NCBI GenBank assembly: GCA_041671225.1
Contig: JBAZBY010000001.1
Coordinates: forward strand, 494,940-558,939
Direction of reading: 5' to 3'
DNA: 64,000 nucleotides
DNA from: Patescibacteria group bacterium
Lineage (GTDB): Bacteria > Patescibacteriota > Patescibacteriia > JBAZBY01
The notes beneath the pieces were generated by a model, which saw only the letters and a program-made list of their open reading frames with translations, made no database searches and was not told the DNA's origin. Numbering within the stretch: the stretch's first letter is position 1; each line of letters starts with the position of its first letter. Positions 805-64,000 of this stretch are shown piece after piece. The translations under genes were made by a program, and so were the position numbers.

Positions 805-805
805 C

Positions 806-3191: not shown

Positions 3192-3192
3192 T

Positions 3193-3966
3193 TTAAAACC
3201 AGCGTAACTTAAGTGCCCCGGCAGTGGAATCGATGGGGTTGATAAATGCTGGTGGTAAACAAGAACCTACGGGAGTGCCTGGGTTTGACGAACTAACGCC
3301 GAGGTAATATGCGCAACCGTTTTTATCATTTCCACAATTTGAAGGAAGAAACAAACCGCCTGGACATTCACTATCTGTAAAACTTTGGCAACCTGACTTA
3401 AACCACGCGAAATATGCACCAGGCACAACGGTATGACCCCAAAATGTACCACCGGGACTGTGCGATATATAGATGAAACTTGGATAGCCACTCGTAAATT
3501 TTTTCGTTACAGGTGAGAGGATGGGGTTGGTTTGAATGTTGCGGTTGATATATGGAAGCATTTTTGTCGCAATAGCACTGTCCCCACTTTGTGTTGGTCC
3601 CGCACCACTACAAGGAGCTGCCGATGATTCACCGATTCGGCAGTAGCTATTAGCACCAAGACCGACTCTTCCCGCCCCGAGACAGGTATGTTCTGGAAAT
3701 CCAGGGCCGTAACTAAAACATGTTGGGGCTTGTCCCATACAGTGACTGGTAGGAAGTGCTCCATTATTATCATCTGCAAACACCATAAGCGCATTCATCA
3801 GTGAACGTGCGTCGGTAGACGCCTTTGCATTTAATGCTTTCTCTCGCCCGCCATTCAGTTGTACCAGCCCGATCGTTGAAAGAATTCCAATGATTGCAAT
3901 AACGATCAGCAGCTCAATGAGGGTAAAGCCTTTTTTGTTTTCAGGATTTTTTTCGTCCTTTTCCAT
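3193..3966 (-). CDS. Type IV pilin-like / pseudopilin (class III signal peptide)
   Basis: An internal Met gives MEKDEKNPENKKGFTLIELLIVIAIIGILSTIG, the canonical prepilin N-terminus (G-F-T-L-I-E plus hydrophobic helix). The longer ORF upstream of this Met is Arg/Cys-rich and looks non-coding. Confidence 0.7.
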   Translation of the reverse strand: MEKDEKNPENKKGFTLIELLIVIAIIGILSTIGLVQLNGGREKALNAKASTDARSLMNALMVFADDNNGALPTSHCMGQAPTCFSYGPGFPEHTCLGAGRVGLGANSYCRIGESSAAPCSGAGPTQSGDSAIATKMLPYINRNIQTNPILSPVTKKFTSGYPSFIYISHSPGGTFWGHTVVPGAYFAWFKSGCQSFTDSECPGGLFLPSNCGNDKNGCAYYLGVSSSNPGTPVGSCLPPAFINPIDSTAGALKLRWF

Positions 3967-4912: not shown

Positions 4913-5105
4913 ATACCGTATTGTACGACACTTGCGTTCTTTTGCACACTATACCGCCCAAGCATTGACATGGTATACTCGTTGTGGTAGTTTATTTTGG
5001 TTCAGTTTTTAATGTTTATCATTTATTTCCCCGACATCGCTTGGTGAGGCGCGTCCCGAGAGGCCACGTCCACTCAGCAATGCCGAACGTATTTAAGGAG
5101 GAAAC

Positions 5106-9756: not shown

Positions 9757-12700
9757 TTGTATATGAAACATACACGATATCAGCGCATGTTCGCATCCAT
9801 CGCAGTCATTGCGATGATCCTCATGCCACTCAGCGGTCTGCAGATCAACACCGCACAAGCAAGCGGCTTGCAAGTGACAGGCAGAGTTGTCAGCCCGAGC
9901 GGCGCAGCGCTTTCCAGCGCTGGCGGTTGGGTGCAGATCGATCCCGCTGCCGGTGGCCCAGGTTTTGGGGAACCGATTCAGAATGACGGTACGTTCACCC
10001 TGAACGGTTTAACTGCCGGCCAGTATAACGTGATGCTAAATTATGGCGGGGCTGGAGATTACACCGCACCGGCGCCGTTCCTCATTACCATTGGAGCAAC
10101 GAATGTTAATCTTGGAAATATCAAACTTGTGATGCCGGCGATCAGTGGGGTACTTTTACCGCCGTCAGGAAGTGCACCCGTCACCAATGCCTCCATCAAT
10201 CTTCGTAGTCAAGACTATACGGTGAATATATGGATCGGCACGGATCCTGTTACCGGAACATTCAAATTCGGTGGCATCAATCCGGGAACATATATCTTAG
10301 CGGCTGAAGCACCGGCCGGTAGCGGATATGCAAATGCAACTGCTGAACTGGAATATACGGGTACAGCGATCACGAATTATCAGTTGCGTCTTGCAATGCC
10401 GAACGTCAAAGGAAAGATCGTCAGCTCTACCGGTGGCTCGTTGGCATATCCGGATATGGCATGGATGAACGCGCGCCTGCACAACGAAGATTACACCATT
10501 TCTCGCGATGCAAATGTCGACCGCACGTCTCATGAATTCATCTTTGGGACTGTGCCATCAGGTTCTTACATATTGGAATTTGATGCGAATGGATTTTCAG
10601 AAACGCCTCCAACAGCCATCACCGTTTCTGTGACGAGCGGTGTATTGAAGAATTTAGGTAATATTCGGATGAGTCGGTCACAATTACAGGGAACCATTAC
10701 CGATCCGTCGGGAGATCCGGTGCAAAATGCGAATATTCAGGTACATAATGATGACTGGTCAAAGAAAGCATGGGCGAACACCGATCAAAACGGTGCATAT
10801 CGCATTGGCGGACTTGCCGCCGGTATATATACCATTGAGGTTCAGGCACCATGGGGAGGTTCTTCCGGACTTGTGTCTCCTGAACCGCAACAAGTGACGC
10901 TGACGCTGGGCGGAACGATCACAAAAAATCTCCGGTTCGTGCAGGCAACGAAGTTCCTGCGTGGAACGGTACGATATGCCGTTGGCACCGGCGCTCAGGC
11001 CGTTGTTGAAGGGGGTGTTGCCGGTGCGCAGGTGAATCTGAATAAAGACGGGGGCTTTGGCAATGCAAGCGCCACCACGGATAGTTCAGGCAATTATGAG
11101 ATCGCGCTTTCCGGCGGCATTTGGAATATGAATGTACAGCCGGCCAATTATCCCGGAGCACCGGCAGCGGATTGGTTCTATGCCGGTCCATCACTGAGCG
11201 TGACATTCGCGAACAACGGAACAATAGAAAATAAGACCATGAATGTGGGAGTTGAACGCGCAACAGCAAGCATCAAAGGAAAAGTGACAAAAGCAGACGG
11301 AACACCGGTGACGCAGGCATGGGTGGATGCAAGGAATGGTAGCGGTGCAGGACAGGGTACCAATGTACAGCCGAACGGGACCTTTACCTTGCGAGTAAAA
11401 GCAGGGACATACACCCTCAATATCTTTGGTGATCAGTCCATGACCTTTCCGGATATGCAGGTTAGTGTGAAAGACGGGGAAATAAAGAACATCGGGACCG
11501 TCACTGCAAAGACCAAAGACGCTAAGATCATCGGAAAGTTTGTTGATGCGTCCGGACGCCCGGTACAAGGACTGCAGGTCGGCGCATTCCAATTTAATGC
11601 AAAAGGATGGAGTAATGGAACATCAGATGAGAACGGCCAGTTCGTTCTTGCGGTGACTTCCGGGCGCTGGGGCGTCAACATGGATAATGGCGGCAACTCA
11701 TCGTATGTGTATTCCGGACAACCTGTTGATGTTGATGTGAAGACCGAAACCTCCACGGTGACATTTGAAGACAACCCGAGATTGGTCATGGAGCTTACCC
11801 GTGCGGATGCAACGATCCAAGGGAACGTTGTCGATACCGACGGTAATGTGGTAACGGGTTTCTGCGCATGGGCGTGGGCTCAGCCAAAGACCGCCGAGAC
11901 ACAAGGGAAAGACGGGGAATTCATGGGACAGCGGTTCGGCGGTCCGGTGAATTGTCAGAACGGGTCATTTTCCATCAGTGTGCCATCAAAAGTAGCTTCC
12001 ACATATATCATCGGCATCGATACTCCGCCGAATACGGTGTATTCCCCGGAAGGAACGCAGACGGTCGCAGTTCTTGCGGACATCACCATAACAAAGAATC
12101 TCGTCGTCAAAGCGAACGATGCGACCCTCAAAGGAAATCTTGTTGACCAGGCTGGAGATCCGGTGAAGGATTGCACAAGCCCGCGCGGATGGTTCGGGGA
12201 CGTGAATGTCTTCGGCAACGGTGGCTGGAAAGGCGGACCCATCAATCCGGATTGCAGTTTCAGCTTCTCGCTGCTTTCTGGTGAATACAACTATGGCTGG
12301 TGGATCGATGACAGCCGTTTCCTGCAAACACCTCCAAGTGATGAAAAGATCACCATCAAAGCCGGTGACAATACATTGAAGATCAAAGTCCTCCGTTCTG
12401 ATGTGACCATTGAAGGAACAGTGGTGAATCCCTCTGGCAAAGGCGTTGATGCCTATGTATGGGCAGGCAATACCGGCGGTGAAGACGAGAAACAGAACGA
12501 TGCAGACATGAACTTCGGCAAGAACATCTTTACCGGGACAAAGACAGAACAAGACGGTACATTCAGCCTTGGACTGCTCTCAGGACAAGTGTGGGAGGTC
12601 GGAACAGGTCTTCCGCAGGGGTCACAATATATGCCAGCGGAACTCTCGACGATCGATCTGAAGAATGGAAGCGCACCGGATGCATTGAGACTGAAGCTGC

Positions 12701-14517
12701 AGGAAGCATTGGGAACTCTTTCCGGTAGCGTTACCATCGGGAATTCTCCTGCGCAGTTCGGATATGTGCATTGCTGGAGTGAACAAGGCGGTTTCACCGG
12801 CGGCGAAGTCATGAATGGAAAATATGAAGTGAACTATGTACAGGGGGATTGGCACTGCCAAGCGGACAGCTTCAATGGCGACACGTTCTATCAGAGCGAT
12901 GAGGCGCTGATCACCGTCACAGACCAGAAGAGTCTGCAGCAGGACTTTACACTTGGTGAGTCTATCTTCTCAGTGCCTTCTACTGTGACGGCAACATTTG
13001 ACGCCGGGGAAGTGCGGAACATCGAACTGGAGAACGGCGTGCGCATCAACATTCCATCAGGAGCGCTTGGGGATGCCGGAACGAACGTGACGGTCACTGC
13101 TTCACCGAATGTCAACGTGAACCAGACCAAGACCGACAAATTGTTCGGCGTCGGGTATGAATTCTCCGCAAAGACCGCTGACGGAACGGACATTACCACG
13201 TTCAACAGCAATGTCACCATCATATTCCCATATACGGACGCGCAATTGGAGGAAATGGGAGTGACGGAAGATGCGCTCGTACCGAAGTATTATGACTCAA
13301 CAACGAATACGTGGCAGCTTCCTATCGGTATCACCGTGGATACGGAGAACAACACCATCTCCATTCAGACGAATCACTTCACAACATTCGGCATCATGCG
13401 TTCCGGTATCACGGGACCTTCCGGCGGTGCACAGAAGATTGTTGCGTCTGCAAAGGCAGGCGGCGGTCCGCACGTAACTGTTTGGGATGCTAACGGCGAG
13501 CTCACTGGCAGCTTCATGGCATACGCAGATACGTTCCGCGGCGGCGTGAATGCAGTCATCGGTGATATTGACGGTGACGGCGTCGGAGAAGTCGTGACGG
13601 TTCCGGATAGCGCTGCCGGCGGACAAGTTCGCGCATTTGAGCAGGACGGCACCTTTATTGGTGAAGTATGGCCCTACGGGTACGGAACCTCATGGCGCGG
13701 TACGCTTTCTCTTGCACTTGCCGATATTGATGGTGATGGCAGTGATGAGGTGATTGTTGCTCCAAAGTCCAACGGTGGCCCGAATGTCCGCACCTATAAC
13801 TTCACTGGTTCTGGATTCGGCCTTCATAGCCAGTTTAACGCGTATAACACGTCACTTCGTACCGGTATTAAAGTATACAGCGAGGATGTTACTGGTGATG
13901 GCACAGCAGAGATCGTGACCGTTCCAATGCCCGGCGCGCCAGCACACGTGCGCGTGTTGAACCAGACTGGTGGTTTGGTCGGCCAGTTCTACGCATTTAC
14001 TGAGGGGTATCGTGGCAGTGCAAACATTACCTTTGGCGACGGTGACCGGGATGGCGACAATGATCTCGTTCTTGCGCCAGCCGTTCTTGGCGGCCCTCAA
14101 GTGCGTGTTGTTGATGGTGGTGGCCAGATGATCTACCAGGAATTCCTCTGGAATTCGAACTGGCGCATGGGTTTTACAGCAGCAATTGATGACACATGGG
14201 AAGGTGGACATATGCATATCATTGCAGCGCCTTCGCAGGGTAGCGGACCACAAATGCGCGTCTGGGATATTGACCCAGGACGCCACAGTCCATATTCTCA
14301 AGGATTCGCATACAATGAATCTTTCCGTGGTGGCGTTGATGTCGTTGTCGCAGATGTTGATAGCGATGGAGTTATGGAGGCTATTACCGCCCCTGGCGCA
14401 GGAGGTGGCCCTCATATCCGCTCTTTCGAGCATGGGTTCACTGGTAGTCCAGAGCTCAACTTTATGAGCCATGCTTCAGCCTTCCGCGGCGGTGTGAACA
14501 TCGACATCGGTCGATAA
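9757..14517 (+). CDS. Giant secreted surface protein with carboxypeptidase-regulatory-like beta-sandwich repeats and C-terminal FG-GAP (integrin-alpha-like) repeats
   Basis: 1586 aa. Signal peptide MFASIAVIAMILMPLSG...AQA. Repeated GxVVxxxGxPV units. C-terminal repeats GDIDGDGVGEVVTVPD...GGQVRAF / GGPNVRTY / GGPQVRVV / GGPHIRSF. Confidence 0.8.
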   Translation: MYMKHTRYQRMFASIAVIAMILMPLSGLQINTAQASGLQVTGRVVSPSGAALSSAGGWVQIDPAAGGPGFGEPIQNDGTFTLNGLTAGQYNVMLNYGGAGDYTAPAPFLITIGATNVNLGNIKLVMPAISGVLLPPSGSAPVTNASINLRSQDYTVNIWIGTDPVTGTFKFGGINPGTYILAAEAPAGSGYANATAELEYTGTAITNYQLRLAMPNVKGKIVSSTGGSLAYPDMAWMNARLHNEDYTISRDANVDRTSHEFIFGTVPSGSYILEFDANGFSETPPTAITVSVTSGVLKNLGNIRMSRSQLQGTITDPSGDPVQNANIQVHNDDWSKKAWANTDQNGAYRIGGLAAGIYTIEVQAPWGGSSGLVSPEPQQVTLTLGGTITKNLRFVQATKFLRGTVRYAVGTGAQAVVEGGVAGAQVNLNKDGGFGNASATTDSSGNYEIALSGGIWNMNVQPANYPGAPAADWFYAGPSLSVTFANNGTIENKTMNVGVERATASIKGKVTKADGTPVTQAWVDARNGSGAGQGTNVQPNGTFTLRVKAGTYTLNIFGDQSMTFPDMQVSVKDGEIKNIGTVTAKTKDAKIIGKFVDASGRPVQGLQVGAFQFNAKGWSNGTSDENGQFVLAVTSGRWGVNMDNGGNSSYVYSGQPVDVDVKTETSTVTFEDNPRLVMELTRADATIQGNVVDTDGNVVTGFCAWAWAQPKTAETQGKDGEFMGQRFGGPVNCQNGSFSISVPSKVASTYIIGIDTPPNTVYSPEGTQTVAVLADITITKNLVVKANDATLKGNLVDQAGDPVKDCTSPRGWFGDVNVFGNGGWKGGPINPDCSFSFSLLSGEYNYGWWIDDSRFLQTPPSDEKITIKAGDNTLKIKVLRSDVTIEGTVVNPSGKGVDAYVWAGNTGGEDEKQNDADMNFGKNIFTGTKTEQDGTFSLGLLSGQVWEVGTGLPQGSQYMPAELSTIDLKNGSAPDALRLKLQEALGTLSGSVTIGNSPAQFGYVHCWSEQGGFTGGEVMNGKYEVNYVQGDWHCQADSFNGDTFYQSDEALITVTDQKSLQQDFTLGESIFSVPSTVTATFDAGEVRNIELENGVRINIPSGALGDAGTNVTVTASPNVNVNQTKTDKLFGVGYEFSAKTADGTDITTFNSNVTIIFPYTDAQLEEMGVTEDALVPKYYDSTTNTWQLPIGITVDTENNTISIQTNHFTTFGIMRSGITGPSGGAQKIVASAKAGGGPHVTVWDANGELTGSFMAYADTFRGGVNAVIGDIDGDGVGEVVTVPDSAAGGQVRAFEQDGTFIGEVWPYGYGTSWRGTLSLALADIDGDGSDEVIVAPKSNGGPNVRTYNFTGSGFGLHSQFNAYNTSLRTGIKVYSEDVTGDGTAEIVTVPMPGAPAHVRVLNQTGGLVGQFYAFTEGYRGSANITFGDGDRDGDNDLVLAPAVLGGPQVRVVDGGGQMIYQEFLWNSNWRMGFTAAIDDTWEGGHMHIIAAPSQGSGPQMRVWDIDPGRHSPYSQGFAYNESFRGGVDVVVADVDSDGVMEAITAPGAGGGPHIRSFEHGFTGSPELNFMSHASAFRGGVNIDIGR

Positions 14518-18351: not shown

Positions 18352-18642
18352 CAGGATACTGAGTGCTGTTTTGGAGAATTGAATGGAGATACTTTGTCCT
18401 TTTCCGCATCAGACACTGCCCTGCGATTTGGGTCTTTACCCCCTCCCTATGGAGTGTTCCAGAAGCCTGAAACATCACAGCAGCACCTCTATGCGATTTT
18501 GAGAACCAAGCAATACTACCCTGGTGTATATTGCCTGTCAAGGCGTTTATTTGTGCTTCAAAAACAACCTTTTTTGCTTTTCGAGTCGCTCCTGATTTGG
18601 TATACTGCAGGTGCACAAAAGGGGACTTACGAGCATTTTTGT

Positions 18643-21048
18643 ATGGATGAAAAGTACATGCCACGCGCTATTGAAACGAAGTGGCAGAAGATTTGGGAGG
18701 AGAAAAAGACATTTGCCGCTGATGATACGGAGAAGGATCATCTCTATATTTTAGATATGTTTCCGTATCCTTCCGCTGCCGGACTCCATGTGGGGCATCC
18801 AGAGGGGTACACCGCAAGTGATATCCTGACGCGATACTGGCGCATGCGCGGCAAAACAGTGCTGCATCCAATGGGTTGGGATGCGTTTGGTTTGCCAGCA
18901 GAAAATTACGCCATCAAAACAAAAACGCATCCACGAGAAATTACAAAACGCAATATTGATCACATGCGTCAGCAGATCAAGCAGCTTGGTTTTGCATATG
19001 ACTGGTCCCGTGAATTTGCCACAACAGACCCAGAATATTACAAATGGACACAGTGGATCTTTTTGAAGCTTTTTGAACGCGGTCTTGCGTATGAGGCGGA
19101 TGTGCCCATCAACTGGTGCCCCAAGGACAAGACCGGGCTTGCGAATGAAGAGGTGGTGGATGGCAAGTGCGAACGCTGCGGCACGCCGGTCACCAAGAAG
19201 AAGCTTCGCCAGTGGATGCTCAAGATTACCGCATATGCGGACCGACTCCTTGGGGGACTTGATGGTCTTGACTGGCCCGAGCCGATCAAACTCCTTCAGC
19301 GTAACTGGATTGGTCGAAGTGAAGGCGCGGAGATTCATTTTTCAATTGAGGGTCATACTGAAACGCTTGATATTTTTACGACGCGACCAGATACGCTTTT
19401 TGGGGCAACCTATATGGTGTTGGCTCCGGAACATCCACTGGTTGATGTGCTCACGACAGATGAACAGCGCGATGCTGTGTATGGCTATCGTCATGAAGCA
19501 GAGTCAAAATCTGATATAGAGCGCCAAGAAGTGAGCCGCGAGAAGACGGGTGTCTTTACGGGGACGTATGCCGTGAATCCGGTGAATAGCGAAAAAATTC
19601 CTATTTGGGTCGCAGATTATGTGCTTATGGGGTATGGCACTGGCGCGATTATGGCGGTACCTGCGCATGATCAACGCGATTTTACATTTGCATCCGCTCA
19701 TCAGCTCCCCATTCGTCAGGTCATTTCCCCTGACGGTATTGAACATGATTTACCGGAGGCATATACAGGTAAAGGCATACTCATTCATTCTGGGGAGTTT
19801 AATGGCCAGCAGACTCAGGACGCATCCGCTGCCATCATTCATTGGCTGACAAAACAGAAAGCAGGCGCGCCCAGCATTCACTATAAGCTTCGCGATTGGG
19901 TGTTCTCCCGCCAGCGGTATTGGGGAGAGCCCATTCCTATTATTTATTGTGAGCATTGCGGCGTTGTGCCAGTTCCAGCAGAAGACCTTCCCGTACTTCT
20001 TCCTGATGTGGAGTCCTACGAGCCAACAGGAACCGGCGAATCTCCGCTTGCGGGTATTGATGATTGGGTGAAGACGCAATGCCCCAAATGTGATGGCCCC
20101 GCAAAACGTGAAACAAACACCATGCCGCAGTGGGCAGGCTCTTCATGGTATTTTCTCCGTTATATTGATGCCAAGAATTCAAATGCGCTTGCAGACAAAA
20201 AGAAGTTGAAACATTGGTTGCCAGTGGATCTCTATATTGGTGGAGCTGAACATGCGGTATTACATCTGCTTTACGCACGTTTTTGGAACATGGTTCTGTA
20301 TGACGAAGGCATTGTTCCCGTTGAAGAACCATTTCAAAGACTGAAGAATCAGGGACTTATTATCGGCGAGGACAATCATAAGATGTCGAAGTCTCGCGGG
20401 AATGTGATTGATCCAGACAAGATCATTGATGCGTATGGCGCAGACACCATGCGCTTGTATGAAATGTTCATGGGGCCCTTTGAAGACGCAAAACCTTGGT
20501 CCACGCGCGGTATCGCTGGAGTGCATCGATTCTTGCATAAAGTGTGGCATGCGCAGGAAAAAGTGAAGAGCGTTGTGGGACAAGATGAAGAAACAGAACG
20601 ACTTGTGCACCAGGCAATACAAAAAGTTACCGCAGATATTGAGGGATTCCGGTTTAATACTGCAATTGCGCAATTGATGGCGCTCATGAATCATCTCACT
20701 GCACGTGAAGTTATTGCAAAGGATACATGGGATATTTTTGTGCGGCTTCTTGCGCCGTTTGCTCCGCACCTCAGCCACGAGCTCATGGAACGCGCTGGTA
20801 TGAAGGTAGATTTTATTGCAGAGTGGCCTGAGGCAGACAGCGCAAAAGCTGAGGAATCTCAGGTGACACTTGTCGTACAGGTGAATGGCAAGGTGCGCGC
20901 GAAGCTACAAATACAAAAAGGAAAGAAAGAAAAGGAGATCGTTGTCGCAGCAAAGAAGAACGAGAAGGTTGCAAAGTACCTTGCGGAGGGGGAAGTGGTA
21001 AAGGTCATTTTTGTACCTGAAAAGCTCGTGAACTTTGTGATGAAATGA
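18643..21048 (+). CDS. leuS: Leucyl-tRNA synthetase
   Basis: MDEKYMPRAIETKWQKIWEE start; HVGHPEGY (HIGH-like) and HKMSKSRGN (KMSKS) motifs. The ORF extends upstream to 18379, but that extension does not look coding. Confidence 0.95.
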   Translation: MDEKYMPRAIETKWQKIWEEKKTFAADDTEKDHLYILDMFPYPSAAGLHVGHPEGYTASDILTRYWRMRGKTVLHPMGWDAFGLPAENYAIKTKTHPREITKRNIDHMRQQIKQLGFAYDWSREFATTDPEYYKWTQWIFLKLFERGLAYEADVPINWCPKDKTGLANEEVVDGKCERCGTPVTKKKLRQWMLKITAYADRLLGGLDGLDWPEPIKLLQRNWIGRSEGAEIHFSIEGHTETLDIFTTRPDTLFGATYMVLAPEHPLVDVLTTDEQRDAVYGYRHEAESKSDIERQEVSREKTGVFTGTYAVNPVNSEKIPIWVADYVLMGYGTGAIMAVPAHDQRDFTFASAHQLPIRQVISPDGIEHDLPEAYTGKGILIHSGEFNGQQTQDASAAIIHWLTKQKAGAPSIHYKLRDWVFSRQRYWGEPIPIIYCEHCGVVPVPAEDLPVLLPDVESYEPTGTGESPLAGIDDWVKTQCPKCDGPAKRETNTMPQWAGSSWYFLRYIDAKNSNALADKKKLKHWLPVDLYIGGAEHAVLHLLYARFWNMVLYDEGIVPVEEPFQRLKNQGLIIGEDNHKMSKSRGNVIDPDKIIDAYGADTMRLYEMFMGPFEDAKPWSTRGIAGVHRFLHKVWHAQEKVKSVVGQDEETERLVHQAIQKVTADIEGFRFNTAIAQLMALMNHLTAREVIAKDTWDIFVRLLAPFAPHLSHELMERAGMKVDFIAEWPEADSAKAEESQVTLVVQVNGKVRAKLQIQKGKKEKEIVVAAKKNEKVAKYLAEGEVVKVIFVPEKLVNFVMK

Positions 21049-55551: not shown

Positions 55552-56655
55552 AAGAAGGAGGCGGGCCAAGGGTTTGAACCTTGTGTTACCCGCCATCGTA
55601 TCTAGCGCCCCGTAAGGGGAGAGTGCCGTGAGATTGGCCTGTGCGCTCGCAAGGAGCGCTGTTTCAGGCACGTATCAGGCGCCTCTTTCGCTGTTTGTGC
55701 TGTTGTGTGGGGTTTGGCGGCTACGTCGTGTTGCTGAATCTAGGATGACCCGTCTTCCTCACACTGTTTGGGAGTCCCTACCGTTCGTCGCCGCGACCAG
55801 AGTGGTAGCGACGCCGGTGCGGATGTCCCGGACCCATGAGGGCGCCGGTGTACCCCAGGGAGGATTCCCTAGGGTGCGCTCCGCTTCCGGACAGTACCAG
55901 CTCGGCATCGGCGGCGCCCAGCCTCTTGCTCTCGTTGCCGGGAAGATCCAGTGTCCGCGTCGGCAGCTGGCGCGGCTTCGGCTCGAGCCGCAACCCTTCC
56001 TGCGGGATGTCAGTTCCGGTGAGGAAACCTTCCCGTTGGAGGACTTCGTGCTCGGCCATTACGCCAGGACCGAAAGCGGGGTAGATGATGCGCGGTTTGG
56101 CCACGCTCGGGTCAGTGAGACCCCAGCGCAGCGTCCGCGACATCGGTTGATCGCTTCCGTGTACCAGTCCGGTCTGACTGCAGACCAGCCGCGCAGAACC
56201 TTTCGGTTCTGGCACCGCGAACCCGAAACCCAGGGTTCCGATACAGCAGCGGTGTCCGCTGCCTGTGTCGTGCCCCGGGCATTGGTCACCCGACTTGAGA
56301 GACTTCTTTTTTTCCATCTGCTTTGAACCTTTTCGCGTGTTGAGGGTTGTCACGCCATACTTCACTACCCTTTCTTTTTTTTGGAGGTATGACGCTGTTG
56401 CGTTGCGTGGAATCCCTCCCTTGCTCATTTGAGTGGAAGGGGAAAAGGGGGAGCACGCCGAAAATGTTCGGAGGGCAACTCCCATGATGTCCGCTGGGCG
56501 GTTCAAGACCCTAAACATCATGAGAAGAACACTTCTCGGGCATGCTCCCAAAGATTGGGAACAAAGCAACACGAAGTAGCTTTCAAGGTGCGCTTTGTGT
56601 TTGCATGGACTATACGAGAAAGAGGATATTTGTCAAGTTGAACCCTGGTCTCTTC
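55552..56655. other. GC-rich 1.1-kb segment without a convincing gene, between the convergent T4SS-like operon and recG; nature unresolved
   Basis: Only mutually antisense, Arg/Gly/Pro-rich ORFs (55628-56326 +, 55778-56572 -) typical of GC-rich non-coding DNA. Composition is clearly GC-richer than flanking genes by eye. Begins with a 35-nt GC hairpin (55560-55594). Confidence 0.3.
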
Positions 56656-58722: not shown

Positions 58723-58935
58723 CGGGTTATTGTAGCGCAGTCATGCAAAACGTAACATGGCAGTCTTCGCCCAGGGGTCCCCGCAAACGGGGTGCGCAGG
58801 GAGCGTAGGATTGAGTGAGTGTAGCGAGCGAAATCCGTTAAGCGCGACCGTGTCCCAGTTTGTGGGGTATAACGAGGCTTTATGCGAAAGCCGCAGTCCC
58901 GCTCGGCGGGACGAAGGCTGAAGCATAAAACGATG

Positions 58936-58954
58936 TGGTGCGCCCGGCAGGATT
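58936..58954 (-). other. tRNA 3'-end-like fragment (17/19 identity to the tRNA-Arg 3' end incl. CCA), about 100 bp downstream of the tRNA
   Basis: tggtgcgcccggcaggatt versus tggtgtccccggcaggatt at 59052-59070. Confidence 0.4.
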
Positions 58955-59051
58955 TGCACTCCGCCTTCGGCGGAGTACTCGCGTTACGACGAGCACATAC
59001 GACCGCTCGCGCCGCAGGCGCGAGCCATCACGCCCCCAATAGGCCACCTTT

Positions 59052-59128
59052 TGGTGTCCCCGGCAGGATTCGAACCTGCGACCTCAGGCTCCGCAAGCCT
59101 GCGCTCTATCCAACTGAGCTACGAGGAC
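59052..59128 (-). tRNA. tRNA-Arg (anticodon GCG)
   Basis: 77-nt cloverleaf: GTCCTCG-TA-GCTC-AGTTGGATA-GAGC-G-CAGGC-TTGCGGA-GCCTG-AGGTC-GCAGG-TTCGAAT-CCTGC-CGGGGAC-A-CCA. 7-bp acceptor stem, A20 in the D-loop, encoded CCA. The D- and T-arms closely resemble canonical bacterial tRNA-Arg. Confidence 0.85.
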
Positions 59129-59192
59129 ATCAAAAAGTGGCTATCTGCGCTACATTCCAAATCCAATGATTAAAAGAAAGGGGCGTGATGAG

Positions 59193-59220
59193 CAGGCTCC
59201 GCAAGCCTGCGCTCTATCCA
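59193..59220 (-). repeat. 28-bp perfect direct repeat of the internal tRNA-Arg segment 59085-59112 (D-loop/D-stem through anticodon stem-loop); att-like tRNA fragment
   Basis: caggctccgcaagcctgcgctctatcca occurs inside the tRNA and again about 80 bp beyond its 5' end. Confidence 0.8.
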
Positions 59221-59328
59221 GCTGCCCGGCAGAGCCGGGTCCGGCTTTGCCGGAAGCTACGGGCGCATATCACCAAGGCACTATAGAGAAGAATCCATCT
59301 CTATGCAAGGATACGCGCATTTTTGTGT

Positions 59329-59357
59329 TTGACCAAAGCGTAAATTTGTGCTACAAT
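59329..59357 (+). promoter_or_regulatory. Sigma70-like promoter (TTGACC-17-TACAAT) upstream of the Kelch-repeat giant gene
   Basis: TTGACC 59329-59334, spacer 17, TACAAT 59352-59357. Lies in an AT-rich tract preceding the GC-rich gene. Confidence 0.5.
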
Positions 59358-59447
59358 AATCTTGATTTTTCAGATAAAAAATTTGAAAAACCTTATTTTT
59401 TGGGAGACTTTTTTGCCTTTATCTCCCTATGTATCGTATTGTCGGGA

Positions 59448-62400
59448 ATGAAAAAAACAAGGGGGAAGAGGAAAAAGCACACAATACCTGCACAACGCAT
59501 GCGGCGCACGCCATTGGCGCACCGGCGGCGTCGCGCACCGGCAGGTCAAATACAGCAGATAGCTGGAGCATTCTTGTCGCGGGTTCGCGCGTTGCGCACC
59601 GCACTCATTATCATTGCCATCCTTTCGTTGGGTGGTTTTTTTGCATTCCAATACATCACCACATATGCCGTTTCTGACAGCGTCACCATCTCATCACAAA
59701 CGGAATGGGAAGCTGGCGAGTACTGGAAGAATCAGCTGAATACCACCAACGCCGCAGGGGATCTTTCCATCGCATCCGGAGGCGTTGGTTCATGGGATCT
59801 GACAATGCCGAGCTTCCCAGAAGACACCCGAGGGTATTTTGCATACGGCCAGGAGCCCGCGGATCTTGGTACGGACCTCACGACCGATGGAACATATCTC
59901 TATATGATCATCGGCGGACGCCAGCCGGAGCTCTTCCGCTACAATCCGGAACTGGGAACATGGAAGCAGCTTGCAGATGCACCGACGGATTTCTATGACG
60001 CAGGAGCGCTCACCTATTACGACGGGTATCTGTATGCAACGAACGGGCATGATGGTTTGACGACGACGGATGCCGCAGGCGAGCTCTGGCGTTATGATAT
60101 TGCCGGAGACGCGTGGGCGAAGATGGCAAGCGCTCCGAGCGTCTGGGGTAGTACTGCAGTAGGCGGCGCAGACATTGAAAGCGGCAACAACGGAAAGCTG
60201 TATGCCGTGCAAGGCCATGCGCAGGCGCCGTTCTGGATCTATGACATCGCATCCAACACATGGGCAGACGGTCCAACCGTTCCGGACCCTATTTCCACGG
60301 CCAACAGCCACGCATTGGTCTATTCCGATGTCTCGTTCGGTACTGATCCGGTGTACTGTGAAACGGGGTGTATCTATGCGTTTTTGGGCAACAGCAGGAC
60401 GTTCCTTCGATATGACATCAGCATGAACCAGTGGTACTCGAGCTTCGCAGATGTTCCGGCGGCGCTCGGGAACGTCACAACTGGTAGTGCGCTTGCGTTT
60501 GATGCCGCAAATGATGATCTCTACGCGTTCCGCGGCGGTTCAACGGAATTCATGAAGTATGACATCGATAATCCGGGAACATGGGATGCGGCAACGCTCA
60601 CCACGCCCAACACCCAGCGCAACGTGACGACAGGCGCATCGCTCGTGTACCTTGACGGATACATCTATGGAACGCTGGGGGGCGTGCCGGAACTGGTGCG
60701 GTATGACGTTGGGAATGGCCGGTGGGATGCCGTTGTTGCGCAGAACGCGACCGGCACCAATTCCGGCGATCTGGTGGTGTATGTTCCGGATAACGTCACG
60801 GCAGGGTGTACGGATGATTCCGGGTGTTTGTTCGTTGCCCAGGGAGGCGGTACGGGATTGCGCAGATATGACATCGGCGCGCGCGCGTGGTCTGCGGCGC
60901 TCACCGTGGTTCCTGCCGCGTTCGGGCTGAACGGCACCATGTGCTTTGACGGCACGAATACCATCTATATGGCGCGCGCGGGCAACCAGACCATGGTGTA
61001 CCCGTACAGCATCAGCGGGAACAGTTACGGTACCACCATCACTGCGCCCGGAGCGGTTCAGCAGGGTGCGGGCATCGTTTGCACGGCAGCGAACCGCTTT
61101 TATCTTTTGCGCGGCAATGCGACGAACAGCTTCTATTATTACAACGGAACGACACTCGCGGCAGATGACAACATCCCCGCAGCGGCAGTGGGTTACGGCG
61201 GCGGGCTTTCCTGGGATGGCACATATGTCTATGCTCTTGCTGGCGATCGGCGCGGCAATTTCTACCGCTTTGATCCCTCGCAGGGTTCCGGATCGCGCTG
61301 GAGCGTGATGAACAACCTTCCGACCACCGCGTACTATGTATCGTCTTTGGAGTACGACGGCGCCGGGAACATCTATGTCATCCCAGGGCAATATGAAAAG
61401 GATTTTTGGCGCTATGACGTTTCAGAGAATTCTTGGAGCCGTGCAAGCGAATTACCGCAACGTTTTGGGTATGCGCACGGATTGGCCTATGACAGCGCTG
61501 CCGGCAAGATATGGGTCCTGCGCGGAGGCGCGCCAAGCACGAACAGCGTCGGGTTCCATATGTTCACACCGGAAGCGCATGCATACATTCCATCCGCAAC
61601 ATGGATCTCCGCTCCGATCGATCTTGATTATGTGAGTTCATTTACGGATCTGACCGCAACCACCACGACCCCCGGAGGCACGAGCGTCGCATATGTAACG
61701 CGCACGTCGGATGACAGCGTGAGCTGGTCGGATTGGGCAACAGTTGTTGGCGGGGCCATTGCTTCGCCGGCCAACCGGTACATGCAGGTGAAGGCAACGC
61801 TCACATCGGATGATACCAACACGCCGACGCTCTCGGATTTCACCATTACGTATGAGCGCGATTCAACCGATCCGATACAGCCGAGCATCGTTGGGTATGA
61901 TACCAGCGCAAAAGCCGCCACGCTGACCACGGGCAATTCATATTACTATACGAATCCGTATTTTGAATTTTCCGACGCAACGGATTCTGATTCACGCGTC
62001 ACCGGGTATTACGTTTCATGGACGACCAATGCGAGCCATAATCCGGCGAGCAGCGAAGACTACTTCCAGACCGCGGAGACATATTCCGTGCAAACGCCGC
62101 TCGCGGCCGGCAGCACATACTCCTTGCGCGTCGCAACAAAGGATGCCGCAGGCAACGTGACAGACGCTGAGACGAAGTTCACGTATACGTATACCGGCAT
62201 CTCTCCAGCAGCAACAAAGCAGTGGTCATCCCAGGCGGAGTTTGCCGCGGGTACGGTGAGCAATGTGAGCACATCCGCAAACGCGGGGAACGTCCAGCTC
62301 TCCGCCATGGCGAACGGCGCATGGGCCAATGAAGCGCCGACGAACCTCAACTTGACGACCGGTTCAGGAGCGTCAATGGTGTTCAACGGCAATGACACGG

Positions 62401-64000
62401 TGTATATCCTTCGCGGAACCACCACGCAGACGTTCTGGGCATATTCTGTCGCCAATAAGACCTATACGACGCTCGCGAATTACGGGAACAACGTTACCAC
62501 CGGCGCCAGCATGATCTTTGTTCCTGCCGGTACAAGCGCCGGATGTGCCGATGCCGGCGGGTGTGTCTTTGCATCGCGCGGCGGCTCCACAACGGAATTC
62601 CGGAGGTATGACGTGAATGCCAATACCTGGACGCAGCTTACCGATGGATCCGTGCTACCGCTTGCAGCCGGCAATGGAGCATCGTTCGCGTATAATAGCA
62701 GTGATACGCTGTATTATCTTTCTGGGAGCACTGCGCCCAGCACACGCTTCTATAAATATACGATCTCAACCGGAACCTGGACCCAGCTTCCAGATGTGGA
62801 CCAGACCATCGGGCTTGGGGGAACGCTCACGTATGTTCCCAGCGGCGCATATTGTTCTGATGCAACCGGATGTCTTTTTGCGACTCGCGGGAACTATGAC
62901 ACCGATTTCTACCGGTATCGCATCCAGGCGAATGCCTGGTCATATATGCCGAACACGCCCTTTGGCATCGGGGATGGCGCTTCGATCCGTTATGCCAACG
63001 GGTATGTCTATCTGTTGCGTGGGAGCGCCGCAAGTGCGGTCCCGACGAATAACTTCGTCCGGTATGATCTCACGACCAACCAGTGGGAACACCTTGCGGA
63101 TACGCCGACGAACATTTATCAGGGTTCTGAACAGGGATTGGCATACATCTCCACAAAGAACGAATTCCTGACGTTCCGGGGGTATTCGGAGTATGCGATG
63201 TTCGCGTATGACATCACGGAGAATGCATGGCGGACGCCGTCATTGCCGCATCACTATACGTCGAACGGGTATTACTACGGCGCCGTTGCATATGACACCT
63301 CGGCAGACCTGCTCTATGTCGCCCGCGGGGGAACCTATACGGACTGGTGGGCGTATGATCCGGCGCTCGCGACATGGCAGCAGAAGGCGGACGTCCCGCA
63401 TAACTTGAACATCGGCGCGAGCGCGGAGTATGTGAATCACGCGAACAATACCTACGACGGCACGTACATGCTCGTCGGGTATGAAGCGCAGGGAGACAGC
63501 GTGGGGCACTTCTTCCGGTACAGCGCCGCGACCGATTCCTGGACGCGGTTGGCAAATACCCCTGCAGAGCCGGGCACTGCCGGAGGTGCAGATCTGGTCT
63601 ATGACGGGACTGATGCTATATACACCGCGCAAGGCGGCACCACGTCATATTATAAATACACCATTTCAACCAATACATGGACGACGGTTGTTTCTACGAT
63701 ATGGGCGGCGCCATCAGAAGGGTCTTGCGCAGTGAAGGTGGATGTCGGCGGGACGGATTATATCTATCTGACCCGTGCGGCCAATACAACAACCGTGTAC
63801 CGGTTCAACATCGGCACGCAGACATGGGACGCCGCAGCCACGGTCGAAGTCGCGCCCGGAGCGTTGCGTTATGGGAATGCCTGCGTTGCGGACGGGCAGG
63901 GGAACATTTTGATCCCGCGCGGCAACAGTACCACGGATATGTATGTGCTTGATCCGGACGGTGATGCGAACGGCGTATGGACGACGCGTTCAACATTGAG
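59448..64000 (+). CDS. Giant Kelch/beta-propeller-repeat surface protein (3'-partial; runs off the window; absent from the ORF track because no stop is reached)
   Basis: Manual translation of frame 3 from ATG 59448 gives MKKTRGKRKKHTIPAQRMRR..., then a TM helix ALIIIAILSLGGFFAFQYI, then more than 1450 stop-free codons of Kelch-like blades (YLYATNG, KLYAVQG, DLYAFRGG, IYGTLGG, FYLLRGN, VYALAGD, IWVLRGG, LYYLSGS, VYLLRGS) and FN3-like segments. Confidence 0.75.
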   Translation, partial: MKKTRGKRKKHTIPAQRMRRTPLAHRRRRAPAGQIQQIAGAFLSRVRALRTALIIIAILSLGGFFAFQYITTYAVSDSVTISSQTEWEAGEYWKNQLNTTNAAGDLSIASGGVGSWDLTMPSFPEDTRGYFAYGQEPADLGTDLTTDGTYLYMIIGGRQPELFRYNPELGTWKQLADAPTDFYDAGALTYYDGYLYATNGHDGLTTTDAAGELWRYDIAGDAWAKMASAPSVWGSTAVGGADIESGNNGKLYAVQGHAQAPFWIYDIASNTWADGPTVPDPISTANSHALVYSDVSFGTDPVYCETGCIYAFLGNSRTFLRYDISMNQWYSSFADVPAALGNVTTGSALAFDAANDDLYAFRGGSTEFMKYDIDNPGTWDAATLTTPNTQRNVTTGASLVYLDGYIYGTLGGVPELVRYDVGNGRWDAVVAQNATGTNSGDLVVYVPDNVTAGCTDDSGCLFVAQGGGTGLRRYDIGARAWSAALTVVPAAFGLNGTMCFDGTNTIYMARAGNQTMVYPYSISGNSYGTTITAPGAVQQGAGIVCTAANRFYLLRGNATNSFYYYNGTTLAADDNIPAAAVGYGGGLSWDGTYVYALAGDRRGNFYRFDPSQGSGSRWSVMNNLPTTAYYVSSLEYDGAGNIYVIPGQYEKDFWRYDVSENSWSRASELPQRFGYAHGLAYDSAAGKIWVLRGGAPSTNSVGFHMFTPEAHAYIPSATWISAPIDLDYVSSFTDLTATTTTPGGTSVAYVTRTSDDSVSWSDWATVVGGAIASPANRYMQVKATLTSDDTNTPTLSDFTITYERDSTDPIQPSIVGYDTSAKAATLTTGNSYYYTNPYFEFSDATDSDSRVTGYYVSWTTNASHNPASSEDYFQTAETYSVQTPLAAGSTYSLRVATKDAAGNVTDAETKFTYTYTGISPAATKQWSSQAEFAAGTVSNVSTSANAGNVQLSAMANGAWANEAPTNLNLTTGSGASMVFNGNDTVYILRGTTTQTFWAYSVANKTYTTLANYGNNVTTGASMIFVPAGTSAGCADAGGCVFASRGGSTTEFRRYDVNANTWTQLTDGSVLPLAAGNGASFAYNSSDTLYYLSGSTAPSTRFYKYTISTGTWTQLPDVDQTIGLGGTLTYVPSGAYCSDATGCLFATRGNYDTDFYRYRIQANAWSYMPNTPFGIGDGASIRYANGYVYLLRGSAASAVPTNNFVRYDLTTNQWEHLADTPTNIYQGSEQGLAYISTKNEFLTFRGYSEYAMFAYDITENAWRTPSLPHHYTSNGYYYGAVAYDTSADLLYVARGGTYTDWWAYDPALATWQQKADVPHNLNIGASAEYVNHANNTYDGTYMLVGYEAQGDSVGHFFRYSAATDSWTRLANTPAEPGTAGGADLVYDGTDAIYTAQGGTTSYYKYTISTNTWTTVVSTIWAAPSEGSCAVKVDVGGTDYIYLTRAANTTTVYRFNIGTQTWDAAATVEVAPGALRYGNACVADGQGNILIPRGNSTTDMYVLDPDGDANGVWTTRSTL

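What the first reader, a model, noticed from the sequence alone, without database searches (positions are those of the whole stretch)
59329..64000. Compositionally distinct (GC-rich) giant Kelch/beta-propeller surface-protein gene next to the tRNA hot spot; missed by the ORF track
From ATG 59448 a single frame stays open to the window end (more than 1500 codons). It encodes an N-terminal basic segment, one TM helix and a long series of Kelch-like blades plus FN3-like modules. By eye its GC content is much higher than that of the housekeeping genes (long GC runs such as gcgcgcgcgtggtctgcggcgctcaccgtgg). It follows the repeat-flanked tRNA-Arg and has its own sigma70-like promoter in an AT-rich spacer. 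This pattern suggests horizontal acquisition.
Basis: partly seen in the sequence, partly recalled or inferred. Interest (0 to 1): 0.55.

Follow-up and report, generated by a model that had tools for sequence, protein, structure and literature searches.

The report
Giant Kelch-propeller envelope protein gene
This is the first half of a gene for a roughly 2,850-residue membrane-anchored, multi-propeller surface protein from a family found across the ultra-small Patescibacteria and almost always followed by a MacB-type ABC transporter; its unusually high GC content here is real, but horizontal acquisition is only partly supported.

Summary
From ATG 59448 one frame stays open for 1,517 codons to the window end. 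It encodes a basic tail, one TM helix, two pairs of six-bladed Kelch propellers, a beta-sandwich and one FN3-like module. The public record (GCA_041665645.1) calls a 2,950-aa gene from an upstream ATG, so the real protein is about 2,856 aa.

It belongs to an unnamed, uncharacterised family of 2,300-3,000-aa proteins (265 loci in species-representative genomes, most of those listed titled Patescibacteria). In 68 of 73 loci with a complete 3' end, an ABC ATPase gene and then a MacB_PCD/FtsX permease gene follow on the same strand. The nearest solved permease is B. subtilis YtrF. This three-gene module is the main result; I found no paper on it.

The GC anomaly is real. GC3 is 0.644 against 0.46 for the other window genes. 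In 68 other genomes the giant gene matches its partners (difference -0.013 +/- 0.031), so the window is 6.5 sd out.

HGT is only partly supported. The gene abuts a rearranged, disrupted tRNA-Arg locus where two independent k=31 assemblies break. However, the protein groups with the host's own broad clade, codon usage is intermediate, and the dinucleotide signature is ordinary. Transfer from a GC-richer relative is my leading reading; a native gene or an assembly chimera remain possible.

The parts
58936..59270 (-). Left boundary: a disrupted outer tRNA-Arg-like copy (3' piece 58936-58959; 5' piece with anticodon arm 59193-59270, carrying a 30-nt hairpin insert in the D stem) that encloses the intact tRNA
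   Evidence: Direct repeats. The 346-nt minus-strand RNA folds with z = -7.6 and the outer acceptor stem closes around the rest. Artificially spliced pieces, with a borrowed 5-nt variable loop, are called tRNA-Arg(GCG) by ARAGORN. Two Logan contigs end at 59253.
59052..59128 (-). Intact tRNA-Arg (anticodon GCG)
   Evidence: ARAGORN and Rfam tRNA at 71.5 bits. It is 91-95% identical to the tRNA-Arg upstream of recG in relatives L143 and L144, but in the opposite orientation relative to recG.
59329..59357 (+). Sigma-70-like promoter match, TTGACC-17-TACAAT with a TG extended -10, in the AT-rich spacer
   Evidence: 10 of 12 positions match; one site found against 0.5 expected. This is a consensus match only.
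59448..59582 (+). Start codon and basic, predicted cytoplasmic N-terminal tail (aa 1-45)
   Evidence: Translation. Homologues align from residue 1-2. All family members carry a K/R-rich tail before the TM helix.
59583..59663 (+). Single N-terminal transmembrane helix or signal anchor (aa 46-72)
   Evidence: Kyte-Doolittle scan. It is the only hydrophobic segment in this protein, and eight of the nine homologues checked likewise have one N-terminal hydrophobic region (P0033, apparently lacking its N-terminus, has none).
59673..59795 (+). N-terminal beta strands of super-module 1 (aa 76-116). Inferred to pack against the beta-sandwich that follows the propellers.
   Evidence: Model 1 has pLDDT about 80-90 here. 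The equivalent segment of unit 2, whose partner domain lies outside the window, has pLDDT 33-50. The packing itself is an inference; I could not inspect coordinates.
59871..61526 (+). First pair of Kelch beta-propellers, about 12 blades (aa 142-693)
   Evidence: Pfam Kelch hits. Model 1 shows about 48 strands. Foldseek returns tandem-propeller proteins: GH74 enzymes and the BT4673 sensor domain.
61548..61859 (+). Beta-sandwich module with no Pfam match (aa 701-804)
   Evidence: Model 1 has pLDDT above 90 here. No Pfam hit. The motif is strongly conserved in the family.
61887..62192 (+). FN3-like module (aa 814-915)
   Evidence: fn3 E 2.5e-4, 21.6 bits, below the 25-bit cut-off. Modelled as an all-beta domain with pLDDT above 90.
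62340..63998 (+). Second pair of six-bladed Kelch propellers (aa 965-1517), cut by the window end
   Evidence: Best Pfam stretches at aa 1150-1385. Model 2 matches Keap1 and NS1-BP Kelch domains. It is 24-27% identical to the first pair, E 9e-24.

Best explanation
Shown: window 59448-64000 is the 5' 53% of a gene for a roughly 2,856-aa protein. It has a short basic tail and one N-terminal TM helix. The rest is almost entirely beta-structure. Recurrent Cys-containing 'GCxDxxGC' loops suggest it lies outside the cell; this topology is an inference.

The visible part holds one complete super-module (two six-bladed Kelch propellers, a beta-sandwich and an FN3-like domain) and the propeller pair of a second one. 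In homologues a further beta-sandwich, an FN3/purple-acid-phosphatase-N-like array and a conserved amphipathic C-terminal tail follow.

It belongs to an unnamed family spread across Patescibacteria. Family members keep a constant domain order and form length classes that follow the subclades.

Shown for the family, inferred for this copy: the gene is the first cistron of a three-gene module. It is followed by a LolD/FtsE/MacB-like ATPase gene and a MacB_PCD+FtsX permease gene. Together these make a type VII 'mechanotransmission' ABC transporter, nearest to B. subtilis YtrF.

Inferred mechanism: the giant protein is a cell-surface binding platform, probably for glycans or a partner-cell surface. 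The ABC transporter does not pump a small substrate. Instead it uses cytoplasmic ATP hydrolysis to act on the giant protein through its extracytoplasmic domain, either changing its conformation or extracting and positioning its membrane anchor. This would resemble FtsEX acting on PcsB/CwlO/EnvC, or LolCDE acting on lipoproteins.

History, inferred: this copy has a GC3 typical of a 53-55% GC genome but sits in a 48% GC genome, at a rearranged tRNA-Arg locus. The most likely account is replacement or acquisition by recombination from a GC-richer, related patescibacterium, long enough ago for partial amelioration.
For: Gene and architecture.

Full length.

Family:
- 58 proteins, the best only 55% identical, mostly 2,300-2,640 aa.
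- 265 loci in species-representative genomes; most of the 80 listed are titled Patescibacteria or named CPR lineages.
- The family-specific 271-aa module gives 179 hits at E <= 1e-10 among 1.84 billion cluster representatives.
- No NCBIfam model for the window protein, and no match to solved structures by sequence.

Module:
- Among the 83 loci then held, the ATPase was found in 73 and the permease in 70. In the 82-locus set (duplicate L001 dropped), 71 and 69 loci fall in the main clusters, on the same strand as the giant gene (81 of 82 ATPase ORFs, all 69 permease ORFs), with a median gap of 10 bp.
- Of 73 loci with a complete 3' end, 68 have the ATPase within 0.9 kb (my count).
- No other neighbouring gene family occurs in more than 32 loci.
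- Partner identity: ABC_tran, and MacB_PCD+FtsX. Best ATPase models are LolD, FtsE and MacB, all below their cut-offs. Nearest solved permease is YtrF at 6e-31, then MacB, LolC/E and, weakly, FtsX.

History:
- The GC3 excess is 6.5 sd beyond the family norm.
- Relatives' giant genes are equilibrated with their hosts across flank GC of 38-58%.
- The tRNA locus is rearranged and two assemblies break there.
- Codon usage is intermediate between the host (r = 0.71) and the GC-rich sister L090 (r = 0.78).
- A published survey reports that most gene transfers in Patescibacteria come from other Patescibacteria, and lists macB-type ABC genes among acquired genes (PMC12455944).
Against: - The ABC genes of this genome lie beyond the window and could not be read. 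Two relatives from what appears, from the isolate names, to be the same sampling project (L010, L011) have no ATPase in the 1.3-1.5 kb after the giant gene.
- No experiment or structure links any family member to its ABC partner, so the mechanism rests on synteny and analogy.
- Constant length and domain order across classes looks more like a housekeeping envelope component than a fast-evolving adhesin.
- Against HGT: phylogenetic placement is consistent with the host's clade. The dinucleotide signature is typical. Tyr, Glu and Asp codon choice is host-like. No integrase is adjacent. The donor is unknown, the best hit being 55% identical.
Confidence: 0.5

Rival explanations
1. Native, vertically inherited gene. 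The lineage descends from GC-rich ancestors and is drifting to lower GC. This gene has simply lagged, or is held at higher GC3 by selection on a very long and possibly abundant transcript. The adjacency to the tRNA arose by an internal inversion, not by import.
For: - The host's nearest relatives are GC-rich: L090 0.57, L144 0.60, L143 0.61.
- GC is very labile in this subclade, with flanks ranging from 38% to 58%.
- The protein groups with the host's broad clade.
- Codon usage is intermediate and partly host-like.
- The dinucleotide signature is ordinary.
- The tRNA is inverted relative to relatives, as an inversion would produce.
- recG (GC3 0.54) and the 9757-14517 giant gene (0.53) are also above the window mean.
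Against: - No other genome of 68 shows a comparable mismatch between the giant gene and its partners; the maximum is +0.096 against +0.185 here.
- Synonymous sites of a single gene have no obvious reason to escape a genome-wide mutational drift.
- Both G3 and C3 are raised, which argues against simple selection for C-ending codons.
Confidence: 0.3
2. Assembly artefact. The 120-kb MEGAHIT contig joins two co-occurring related populations at a shared tRNA-Arg sequence, so the Kelch gene belongs to another, GC-richer organism.
For: - Only one assembly spans the junction. The NCBI and ENA records have nearly the same length (120,000 and 120,036 bp) and the same gene content, and I take them to be the same contig.
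- Two k=31 Logan assemblies from different runs match 100% up to base 59253 and both stop there.
- tRNA genes are classic sites for chimeric joins.
- The composition changes at exactly this point.
Against: - The 5' acceptor strand on the Kelch side (GCGCCCG) pairs 7 of 7 with the 3' strand on the recG side, and the whole 346-nt unit folds coherently (z = -7.6).
- A k-mer chimera through the shared 32-mer would give one hybrid tRNA, not nested copies.
- Tyr, Asp and Glu codon choice in the Kelch gene is host-like and unlike any sampled GC-rich relative.
- Another GC-rich patch (55.6-56.6 kb, GC 0.63) lies well inside the Logan contigs, so GC mosaicism is genuine in this genome.
Confidence: 0.1
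3. Functional rival: the giant protein is a structural envelope or S-layer-type component, or a glycan-processing enzyme. In that case the ABC transporter either exports or extracts it in the manner of LolCDE, or is an unrelated peptide or antibiotic efflux pump that merely shares an operon.
For: - Length and domain order are constant across classes.
- The N-terminal anchor is a single helix.
- Tandem propellers resemble GH74 enzymes and glycan sensors.
- JGI names some members 'N-acetylneuraminic acid mutarotase'.
- MacB-family pumps are usually annotated as resistance exporters (PMC5985334, listed).
Against: - GH74 and the model share only 13-14% identity, with TM 0.36-0.42.
- The mutarotase model TIGR03548 scores 76.7 bits against a cut-off of 243.2.
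- No catalytic motif was identified.
- A coincidental neighbour would not stay adjacent and co-oriented in about 70 genomes whose other neighbours all differ.
Confidence: 0.25

Closest known systems
FtsEX with its extracytoplasmic partners (PcsB, CwlO, EnvC, RipC): type VII ABC mechanotransmission
   Same: In relatives the partner genes encode an FtsE/LolD-like ATPase and a four-TM FtsX-type permease with a large extracytoplasmic domain. They are encoded together with an extracytoplasmic protein and no obvious transported substrate.
   Different: The permease is only weakly similar to FtsX (E about 1e-4) and carries a MacB_PCD ectodomain. The partner is a 2,300-3,000-aa propeller protein with its own TM anchor, not a coiled-coil hydrolase activator. 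No interaction has been shown.
B. subtilis YtrEF (PDB 9o9x, 9o9y) and the MacB / LolCDE family
   Same: YtrF is the nearest solved homologue over the full length of the 420-aa permease (E 6e-31), followed by MacB and LolC/E. All belong to the same ABC type.
   Different: YtrF's own role is unsettled; the paper I read links it to cell-wall thickness and competence (PMC8060467). No MacA-like adaptor and no lipoprotein pathway is seen here. In Microgenomates-type loci the permease is about 700 aa, with a much larger ectodomain.
Eukaryotic and bacterial Kelch propellers (Keap1, NS1-BP, KLHL proteins; NanM-type mutarotases)
   Same: Six-bladed Kelch fold. Pfam Kelch families score above their cut-offs, and the structural match to NS1-BP has TM 0.75.
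   Different: Four or more propellers in one chain, membrane-anchored and predicted to be extracellular. There is no BTB/BACK domain. The mutarotase family model is not met.
Tandem-propeller glycan binders and enzymes (GH74 xyloglucanases; the Bacteroides BT4673 hybrid two-component sensor domain)
   Same: Two adjacent propellers followed by an Ig-like beta-sandwich. These are the top Foldseek hits for aa 70-935.
   Different: Low TM (0.21-0.42) and 11-14% identity. Similarity is at the level of general architecture only. Catalytic or ligand-binding residues were not assessed.
Large surface adhesin-like proteins of cultivated Saccharibacteria (essential in Tn-seq) and giant genes of Omnitrophota
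   Same: Very large extracytoplasmic multi-domain proteins of ultra-small or predatory bacteria, with glycan-binding-type domains such as FN3 (PMC10633639; bioRxiv 10.1101/2023.11.21.568195).
   Different: Neither paper mentions Kelch-propeller proteins or a MacB-type partner. Homology to those proteins was not tested.

Membership tests
Kelch-repeat beta-propeller superfamily | Repeated roughly 50-residue Kelch motifs scoring above the Pfam gathering cut-offs | tested here: met
   Kelch_6 108.8 bits (cut-off 25.3), Kelch_1 77.3 (20.1), Beta-prop_ATRN-LZTR1 99.1 (50), among others.
Kelch-repeat beta-propeller superfamily | Six-bladed propeller fold | tested here: met
   Models have pLDDT about 80. 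Foldseek matches to NS1-BP (TM 0.75, rmsd 3.6) and Keap1.
Patescibacterial giant Kelch/FN3 protein family (unnamed; P0001-P0052, L001-L083) | Collinear full-length similarity: N-terminal TM, propeller pair, beta-sandwich, FN3, second propeller pair | tested here: met
   93-100% of the 1,517 residues are covered in most hits at 26-55% identity. The alignments are collinear. The window protein falls inside the family tree.
Patescibacterial giant Kelch/FN3 protein family (unnamed; P0001-P0052, L001-L083) | Followed on the same strand by ATPase and MacB_PCD/FtsX permease genes | not testable with these tools
   Met in 68 of 73 relatives with a complete 3' end. For this genome the region lies beyond the window. 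Places on the source contigs were returned only when the requested flank stayed inside the window.
Fibronectin type III domain | Pfam fn3 at or above its gathering score | tested here: inconclusive
   aa 806-925 score 21.6 bits against a cut-off of 25, E 2.5e-4. The region is modelled as a beta-sandwich. The domain is clearly met in the C-terminal part of homologue P0002 (81.4 bits).
tRNA-associated genomic island (HGT) | Composition distinct from the host genome | tested here: met
   GC3 is 0.644 against 0.459 +/- 0.045, and 6.5 sd beyond the family-calibrated difference. However, the dinucleotide signature is not deviant.
tRNA-associated genomic island (HGT) | Insertion at a tRNA gene, with partial tRNA repeats marking both ends | tested here: inconclusive
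   The left end abuts a disrupted tRNA-Arg copy and an intact tRNA-Arg. The right end is outside the window.
tRNA-associated genomic island (HGT) | Integrase or other mobility gene adjacent | tested here: not met
   Between the tRNA and the window end there is only the Kelch gene. The one integrase-family gene (3941-4912) is 54 kb away.
tRNA-associated genomic island (HGT) | Absent from the same site in close relatives; gene tree discordant with the species tree | tested here: inconclusive
   Relatives L143 and L144 have a 165-aa gene beyond an inverted tRNA, but their contigs end within about 1 kb. The gene tree is compatible with the host's broad clade. No species tree could be built.
NanM-type / cyclically permuted mutarotase (JGI's name for some members) | NCBIfam TIGR03548 at or above its cut-off | tested here: not met
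   P0002 scores 76.7 bits against a cut-off of 243.2. The window protein has no NCBIfam hit.

The most novel reading that the evidence does not exclude
The giant Kelch/FN3 protein and the MacB/YtrF-like ABC transporter form a previously undescribed, Patescibacteria-wide envelope machine. In it a type VII ABC 'mechanotransmitter' powers a huge membrane-anchored propeller array, for example to grip, probe or release a host-cell surface. This genome's copy would be an allele exchanged between related lineages at a tRNA-Arg recombination hot spot.
Probability: 0.3. Interest if true: 0.7.

Novelty: new member of a known kind. Interest (0 to 1): 0.42.

Why it matters
Patescibacteria make up a large share of bacterial diversity, yet how they build their envelope and engage host cells is mostly unknown. 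A single-copy-looking protein of 2,300-3,000 aa, conserved in order and length across several classes and almost always encoded with a mechanotransducing ABC transporter, is a concrete candidate for a lineage-wide surface machine. It could be tested by genetics, proteomics, cryo-ET or complex prediction.

For this window specifically, the finding shows that a 'GC-rich gene next to a tRNA' can be calibrated against its own gene family, which here makes the anomaly robust. It also shows that composition alone does not settle horizontal transfer. As a single gene it is otherwise an ordinary member of an existing, unnamed family.

Tried and rejected
- Reading beyond the window. An exact 30-mer from the gene was not found in JGI metagenome contigs. 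The 100%-identical RecG cluster representative P0179 (JGI, 1.03-Mb contig) was not on record. A RecG-based metagenome scan returned only relatives at 43% identity or less. Places on the source contigs were shown only when the flank stayed inside the window. I repeated the RecG look-up once without gain.
- The absence of any protein more than 55% identical in the 5.8-billion-protein search first looked like evidence for a chimera. I dropped this, because the source gene clearly exists in the gene index and may simply not be returned.
- LeuS as a taxonomic marker. Its best non-self hits (61-64%) are labelled Spirochaetes and similar, which was not informative. RecG was better.
- Shared housekeeping genes between the window and the loci of the nearest Kelch homologues, to compare divergence: none found.
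- Dinucleotide signature as an HGT test: uninformative, because the family's amino-acid composition already gives a large distance everywhere.
- DNA-level tandem repeats in the gene: none, so the blades are old.
- Sequence search of solved structures with the Kelch protein: no hit.
- Rfam, Pfam and PHROGs on the GC-rich spacer at 55.6-56.6 kb: nothing.
- Literature searches for Kelch, giant or MacB together with Patescibacteria or CPR: no paper describing this family or module.
- I considered and rejected calling the protein a chitinase (one source's name), a mutarotase or a GH74 enzyme.
Full report
**1. The observation**

Translating from ATG 59448 to the window end gives 1,517 codons with no stop. 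The ORF list omits it only because ORFs that run off the window end are not listed. The product starts with a K/R-rich 45-residue tail and has one hydrophobic helix at aa 46-72. Seven Kelch-type Pfam families score far above their cut-offs. There are no DNA-level tandem repeats.

GC is 0.55-0.57 over the last 5 kb, against about 0.48 elsewhere. Per gene, GC3 is 0.644 against 0.32-0.54 for every other credible gene, z = 4.1. tRNA-Arg(GCG) lies at 59052-59128(-), flanked by partial copies of itself. A TTGACC-17-TACAAT match with an extended -10 sits at 59329-59357.

There are two small corrections. Only one sub-threshold FN3-like module and one unassigned beta-sandwich lie in the visible part. 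The gene is not unannotated in public data.

**2. Source and full length**

Looking up the neighbouring RecG sequence identified the source as NCBI GCA_041665645.1, contig JBAYIM010000003.1 (120,000 bp), and ENA ERZ27249449 contig k141_924761 (120,036 bp). I take these to be the same contig. Both call a 2,950-aa Kelch/FN3 gene starting at window 59166.

That start is an in-frame ATG 94 codons upstream. It reads through the tRNA-like sequence and the AT-rich spacer. Homologues align from residue 1-2 of the 59448 start. I therefore take 59448 as the start and about 2,856 aa as the length (my arithmetic). The window holds 53% of the protein.

**3. Architecture**

AlphaFold models built with a 47-sequence alignment reach pLDDT 81.5 (aa 70-935) and 80.2 (aa 915-1517).
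- short N-terminal strands
- about 12 four-stranded blades, i.e. two propellers (aa 142-693)
- a beta-sandwich (aa 701-804)
- an FN3-like domain (aa 814-915)

Its best PDB matches are tandem-propeller proteins: GH74 enzymes and the BT4673 sensor ectodomain. The second model matches six-bladed Kelch domains: NS1-BP at TM 0.75, and Keap1. The two propeller regions are 24-27% identical to each other (E 9e-24) and share Cys-containing 'GCxDxxGC' loops.

Homologues continue with a second beta-sandwich/FN3 unit, an FN3/Pur_ac_phosph_N-like array and a conserved amphipathic C-terminal tail. Eight of the nine homologues checked have a single N-terminal hydrophobic region; P0033, which appears to lack its N-terminus, has none.

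I infer a protein anchored at its N-terminus, with the N-terminus inside the cell and a very large extracytoplasmic part.

**4. The family**

The large protein search returned 58 relatives, most of them 2,300-2,640 aa. The best is only 55% identical. Sources name them 'hypothetical', 'N-acetylneuraminic acid mutarotase' or 'Chitinase A1 precursor'.

A scan of species-representative genomes found 265 loci. Most of the 80 listed carry Patescibacteria or named CPR-lineage titles, including Microgenomates-group lineages, Moranbacteria, Kerfeldbacteria and Dojkabacteria. Others are titled 'uncultured Gammaproteobacteria' or 'Pseudomonadales'; I suspect these are mislabelled but did not check.

The family-specific 271-aa inter-propeller module finds 179 cluster representatives at E <= 1e-10 among 1.84 billion. 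No NCBIfam model and no solved structure matches the window protein by sequence. My literature searches found no description of the family.

**5. The conserved module**

This is the most informative result. In the three nearest relatives the giant gene is followed after 24 bp by an ABC ATPase gene, and then within a few bases by a MacB_PCD+FtsX permease gene.

Across the fetched loci:
- Among the 83 loci then held, tblastn found the ATPase in 73 and the permease in 70.
- All-against-all clustering of the ORFs of 82 loci (the duplicate L001 dropped) gave three top families: the giant gene (82 loci), the ATPase (71) and the permease (69).
- 81 of 82 ATPase ORFs and all 69 permease ORFs are on the giant gene's strand, with a median gap of 10 bp.
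- No other neighbouring family occurs in more than 32 loci.
- Of 73 loci with a complete 3' end, 68 have the ATPase within 0.9 kb (my count).
- Exceptions: L008 has the pair upstream, L025 and L065 have it 4-5 kb downstream, and L010 and L011 show none in the 1.3-1.5 kb available.

The ATPase is closest to LolD, FtsE and MacB models, and the permease to LolCE, MacB, ADOP and FtsX models, all below their cut-offs. The nearest solved permease is B. subtilis YtrF (6e-31, full length), followed by MacB, LolC/E and, weakly, FtsX. In Microgenomates-type loci the permease is about 700 aa.

These are type VII ABC transporters. In the characterised members I found (FtsEX, LolCDE, MacB), cytoplasmic ATP hydrolysis drives work on the outside of the membrane (PMC5985334, PMC6355983, PMC7668044, listed). 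YtrF itself has no settled function (PMC8060467).

**6. Mechanism (inferred)**

I propose that the giant protein is a surface binding platform. The ABC transporter would act on it mechanically, by conformational control or by handling its membrane anchor, rather than pumping a small substrate.

The synteny is shown; the coupling and its direction are not. The enzyme, structural-layer and unrelated-efflux readings are listed as rivals.

**7. The HGT question**

*Calibration within the family.* In 68 other genomes, the giant gene's GC3 minus its partners' GC3 is -0.013 +/- 0.031 (maximum +0.096). Total GC is only 2.7 points above the flanks, which is an amino-acid composition effect. In the window the GC3 difference is +0.185, or 6.5 sd. 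In the 'long' subclade, flank GC ranges from 38% to 58% and each giant gene tracks its own host.

*Junction.*
- The intact tRNA-Arg is enclosed by pieces of a second, disrupted tRNA-Arg, whose 5' end abuts the Kelch promoter region.
- Two k=31 Logan assemblies from different runs are 100% identical to the window and both stop at 59253.
- In the two nearest relatives (RecG 66% and 62% identical) the same tRNA lies upstream of recG, but inverted and followed by a 165-aa gene. Their contigs end within about 1 kb.

*Against a foreign origin.*
- In an NJ tree the window protein is sister to L006 plus the clade of L002-L005. It lies inside the 'long' group, which includes a Kerfeldbacteria genome. 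RecG's best named hits are also Kerfeldbacteria, at 46%.
- The dinucleotide signature distance, 139, is ordinary for the family at 119 +/- 23.
- Codon fractions correlate 0.71 with the host, 0.78 with the GC-rich syntenic sister L090, and 0.48-0.57 with L001 and L002. Tyr, Glu and Asp choices are host-like.
- The sisters are GC-rich at 57-61%.

*Weighing.* These facts best fit an allele that came from, or is a relic of, a GC-richer related lineage and has partly ameliorated. My estimates are about 0.45 for within-clade transfer, 0.3 for a native lagging gene and 0.1 for a chimera.

The chimera reading is weakened by three points:
- The acceptor pairing across the junction is coherent.
- The Tyr, Asp and Glu codon usage is host-like.
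- A second GC-rich patch lies inside the Logan contigs.

A published survey reports that most detected transfers in groundwater Patescibacteria come from other Patescibacteria (PMC12455944).

**8. Comparison with what is known, and novelty**

The domains (Kelch, FN3) and the ABC type are known. The gene is a new member of an existing but unnamed and uncharacterised family. The family-level pairing of a giant propeller protein with a YtrF/MacB-like ABC transporter is, as far as my searches reach, undescribed. If it is functional, it would be a new variant of the type VII ABC-plus-partner theme.

**9. Limits**

- I could not read the 3' half of the gene or its downstream neighbours.
- I could not build a species tree.
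- I could not inspect model coordinates.
- I could not examine read support at the junction.

Noticed in passing
window 58930-59275 (minus strand): Nested tRNA arrangement. An intact tRNA-Arg(GCG) with about 230 nt of flanks, bracketed by the 11-bp inverted repeat GGGGCGTGATG/CATCACGCCCC, sits inside a second tRNA-Arg-like gene. That outer gene also carries a 30-nt double-hairpin insert in its D stem and a hairpin in place of the 5' T stem. The 346-nt RNA folds with z = -7.6. Relatives have only the single tRNA, inverted relative to recG. Two Logan assemblies break at 59253, one base from the D-stem insert. It could be a decayed tRNA, an insertion cassette or a structured RNA.
   Followed up: partly
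window 55552-56655: A 1.1-kb spacer between the SLT/pilin gene and recG has GC 0.63 in a 48% GC genome. Its only ORFs are unconvincing (247 aa in ENA, 195 aa in NCBI, on the minus strand; 232 aa on the plus strand). It has no Pfam, PHROGs or Rfam hit and no nucleotide or protein similarity to the same spacer in relatives L143 and L144. This is a second GC-rich, lineage-specific patch, on the other side of recG.
   Followed up: partly
window 59166-59447: The public gene call (2,950 aa) starts at ATG 59166 and reads through the tRNA-like sequence and the promoter-like AT-rich spacer. Homologues support 59448 as the start, so the deposited protein is probably 94 residues too long at its N-terminus.
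   Followed up: yes
window 25670-55551: Four consecutive giant ORFs (1,897, 1,709, 1,458 and 1,111 aa, with CBM_4_9, fn3, Big_7, BNR-like and Pur_ac_phosph_N hits) lead into a monoderm-type T4SS-like cluster (PrgI, TraC-like protein, VirB4/TraG-like ATPase, two T4SS-pilin proteins, an SLT transglycosylase and a beta-propeller protein). This resembles the patescibacterial T4SS described in bioRxiv 10.1101/2025.01.22.634366 (listed; I did not read it).
   Followed up: no
window 18379-21048 (leuS): Apart from one syntenic sister (64%), LeuS is most similar (about 61%) to proteins labelled Spirochaetes, Brevinematales or Margulisiibacteriota. It is only 43-47% identical to the LeuS genes that sit next to the Kelch module in 19 Microgenomates-type loci. 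This could be a different LeuS type or an old transfer.
   Followed up: partly
loci L014, L018, L020 and others (Microgenomates-type relatives): There are lineage-specific additions to the module: a 131-aa ORF between the giant gene and the ATPase in 14 loci, a 206-aa gene directly after the roughly 700-aa permease in 22 loci, a 430-aa gene directly upstream in 17 loci, and leuS nearby in 18-19 loci. In the nearest relatives (L001-L005), two receiver-only response regulators and a 437-aa protein with no Pfam hit follow the permease.
   Followed up: partly
window 1-5000: The window starts with Ig-like/dockerin-domain ORFs, a type IV pilin-like protein (N_methyl motif) and a XerC/D-type tyrosine recombinase (3941-4912). 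That recombinase is the only recombinase in the window.
   Followed up: no
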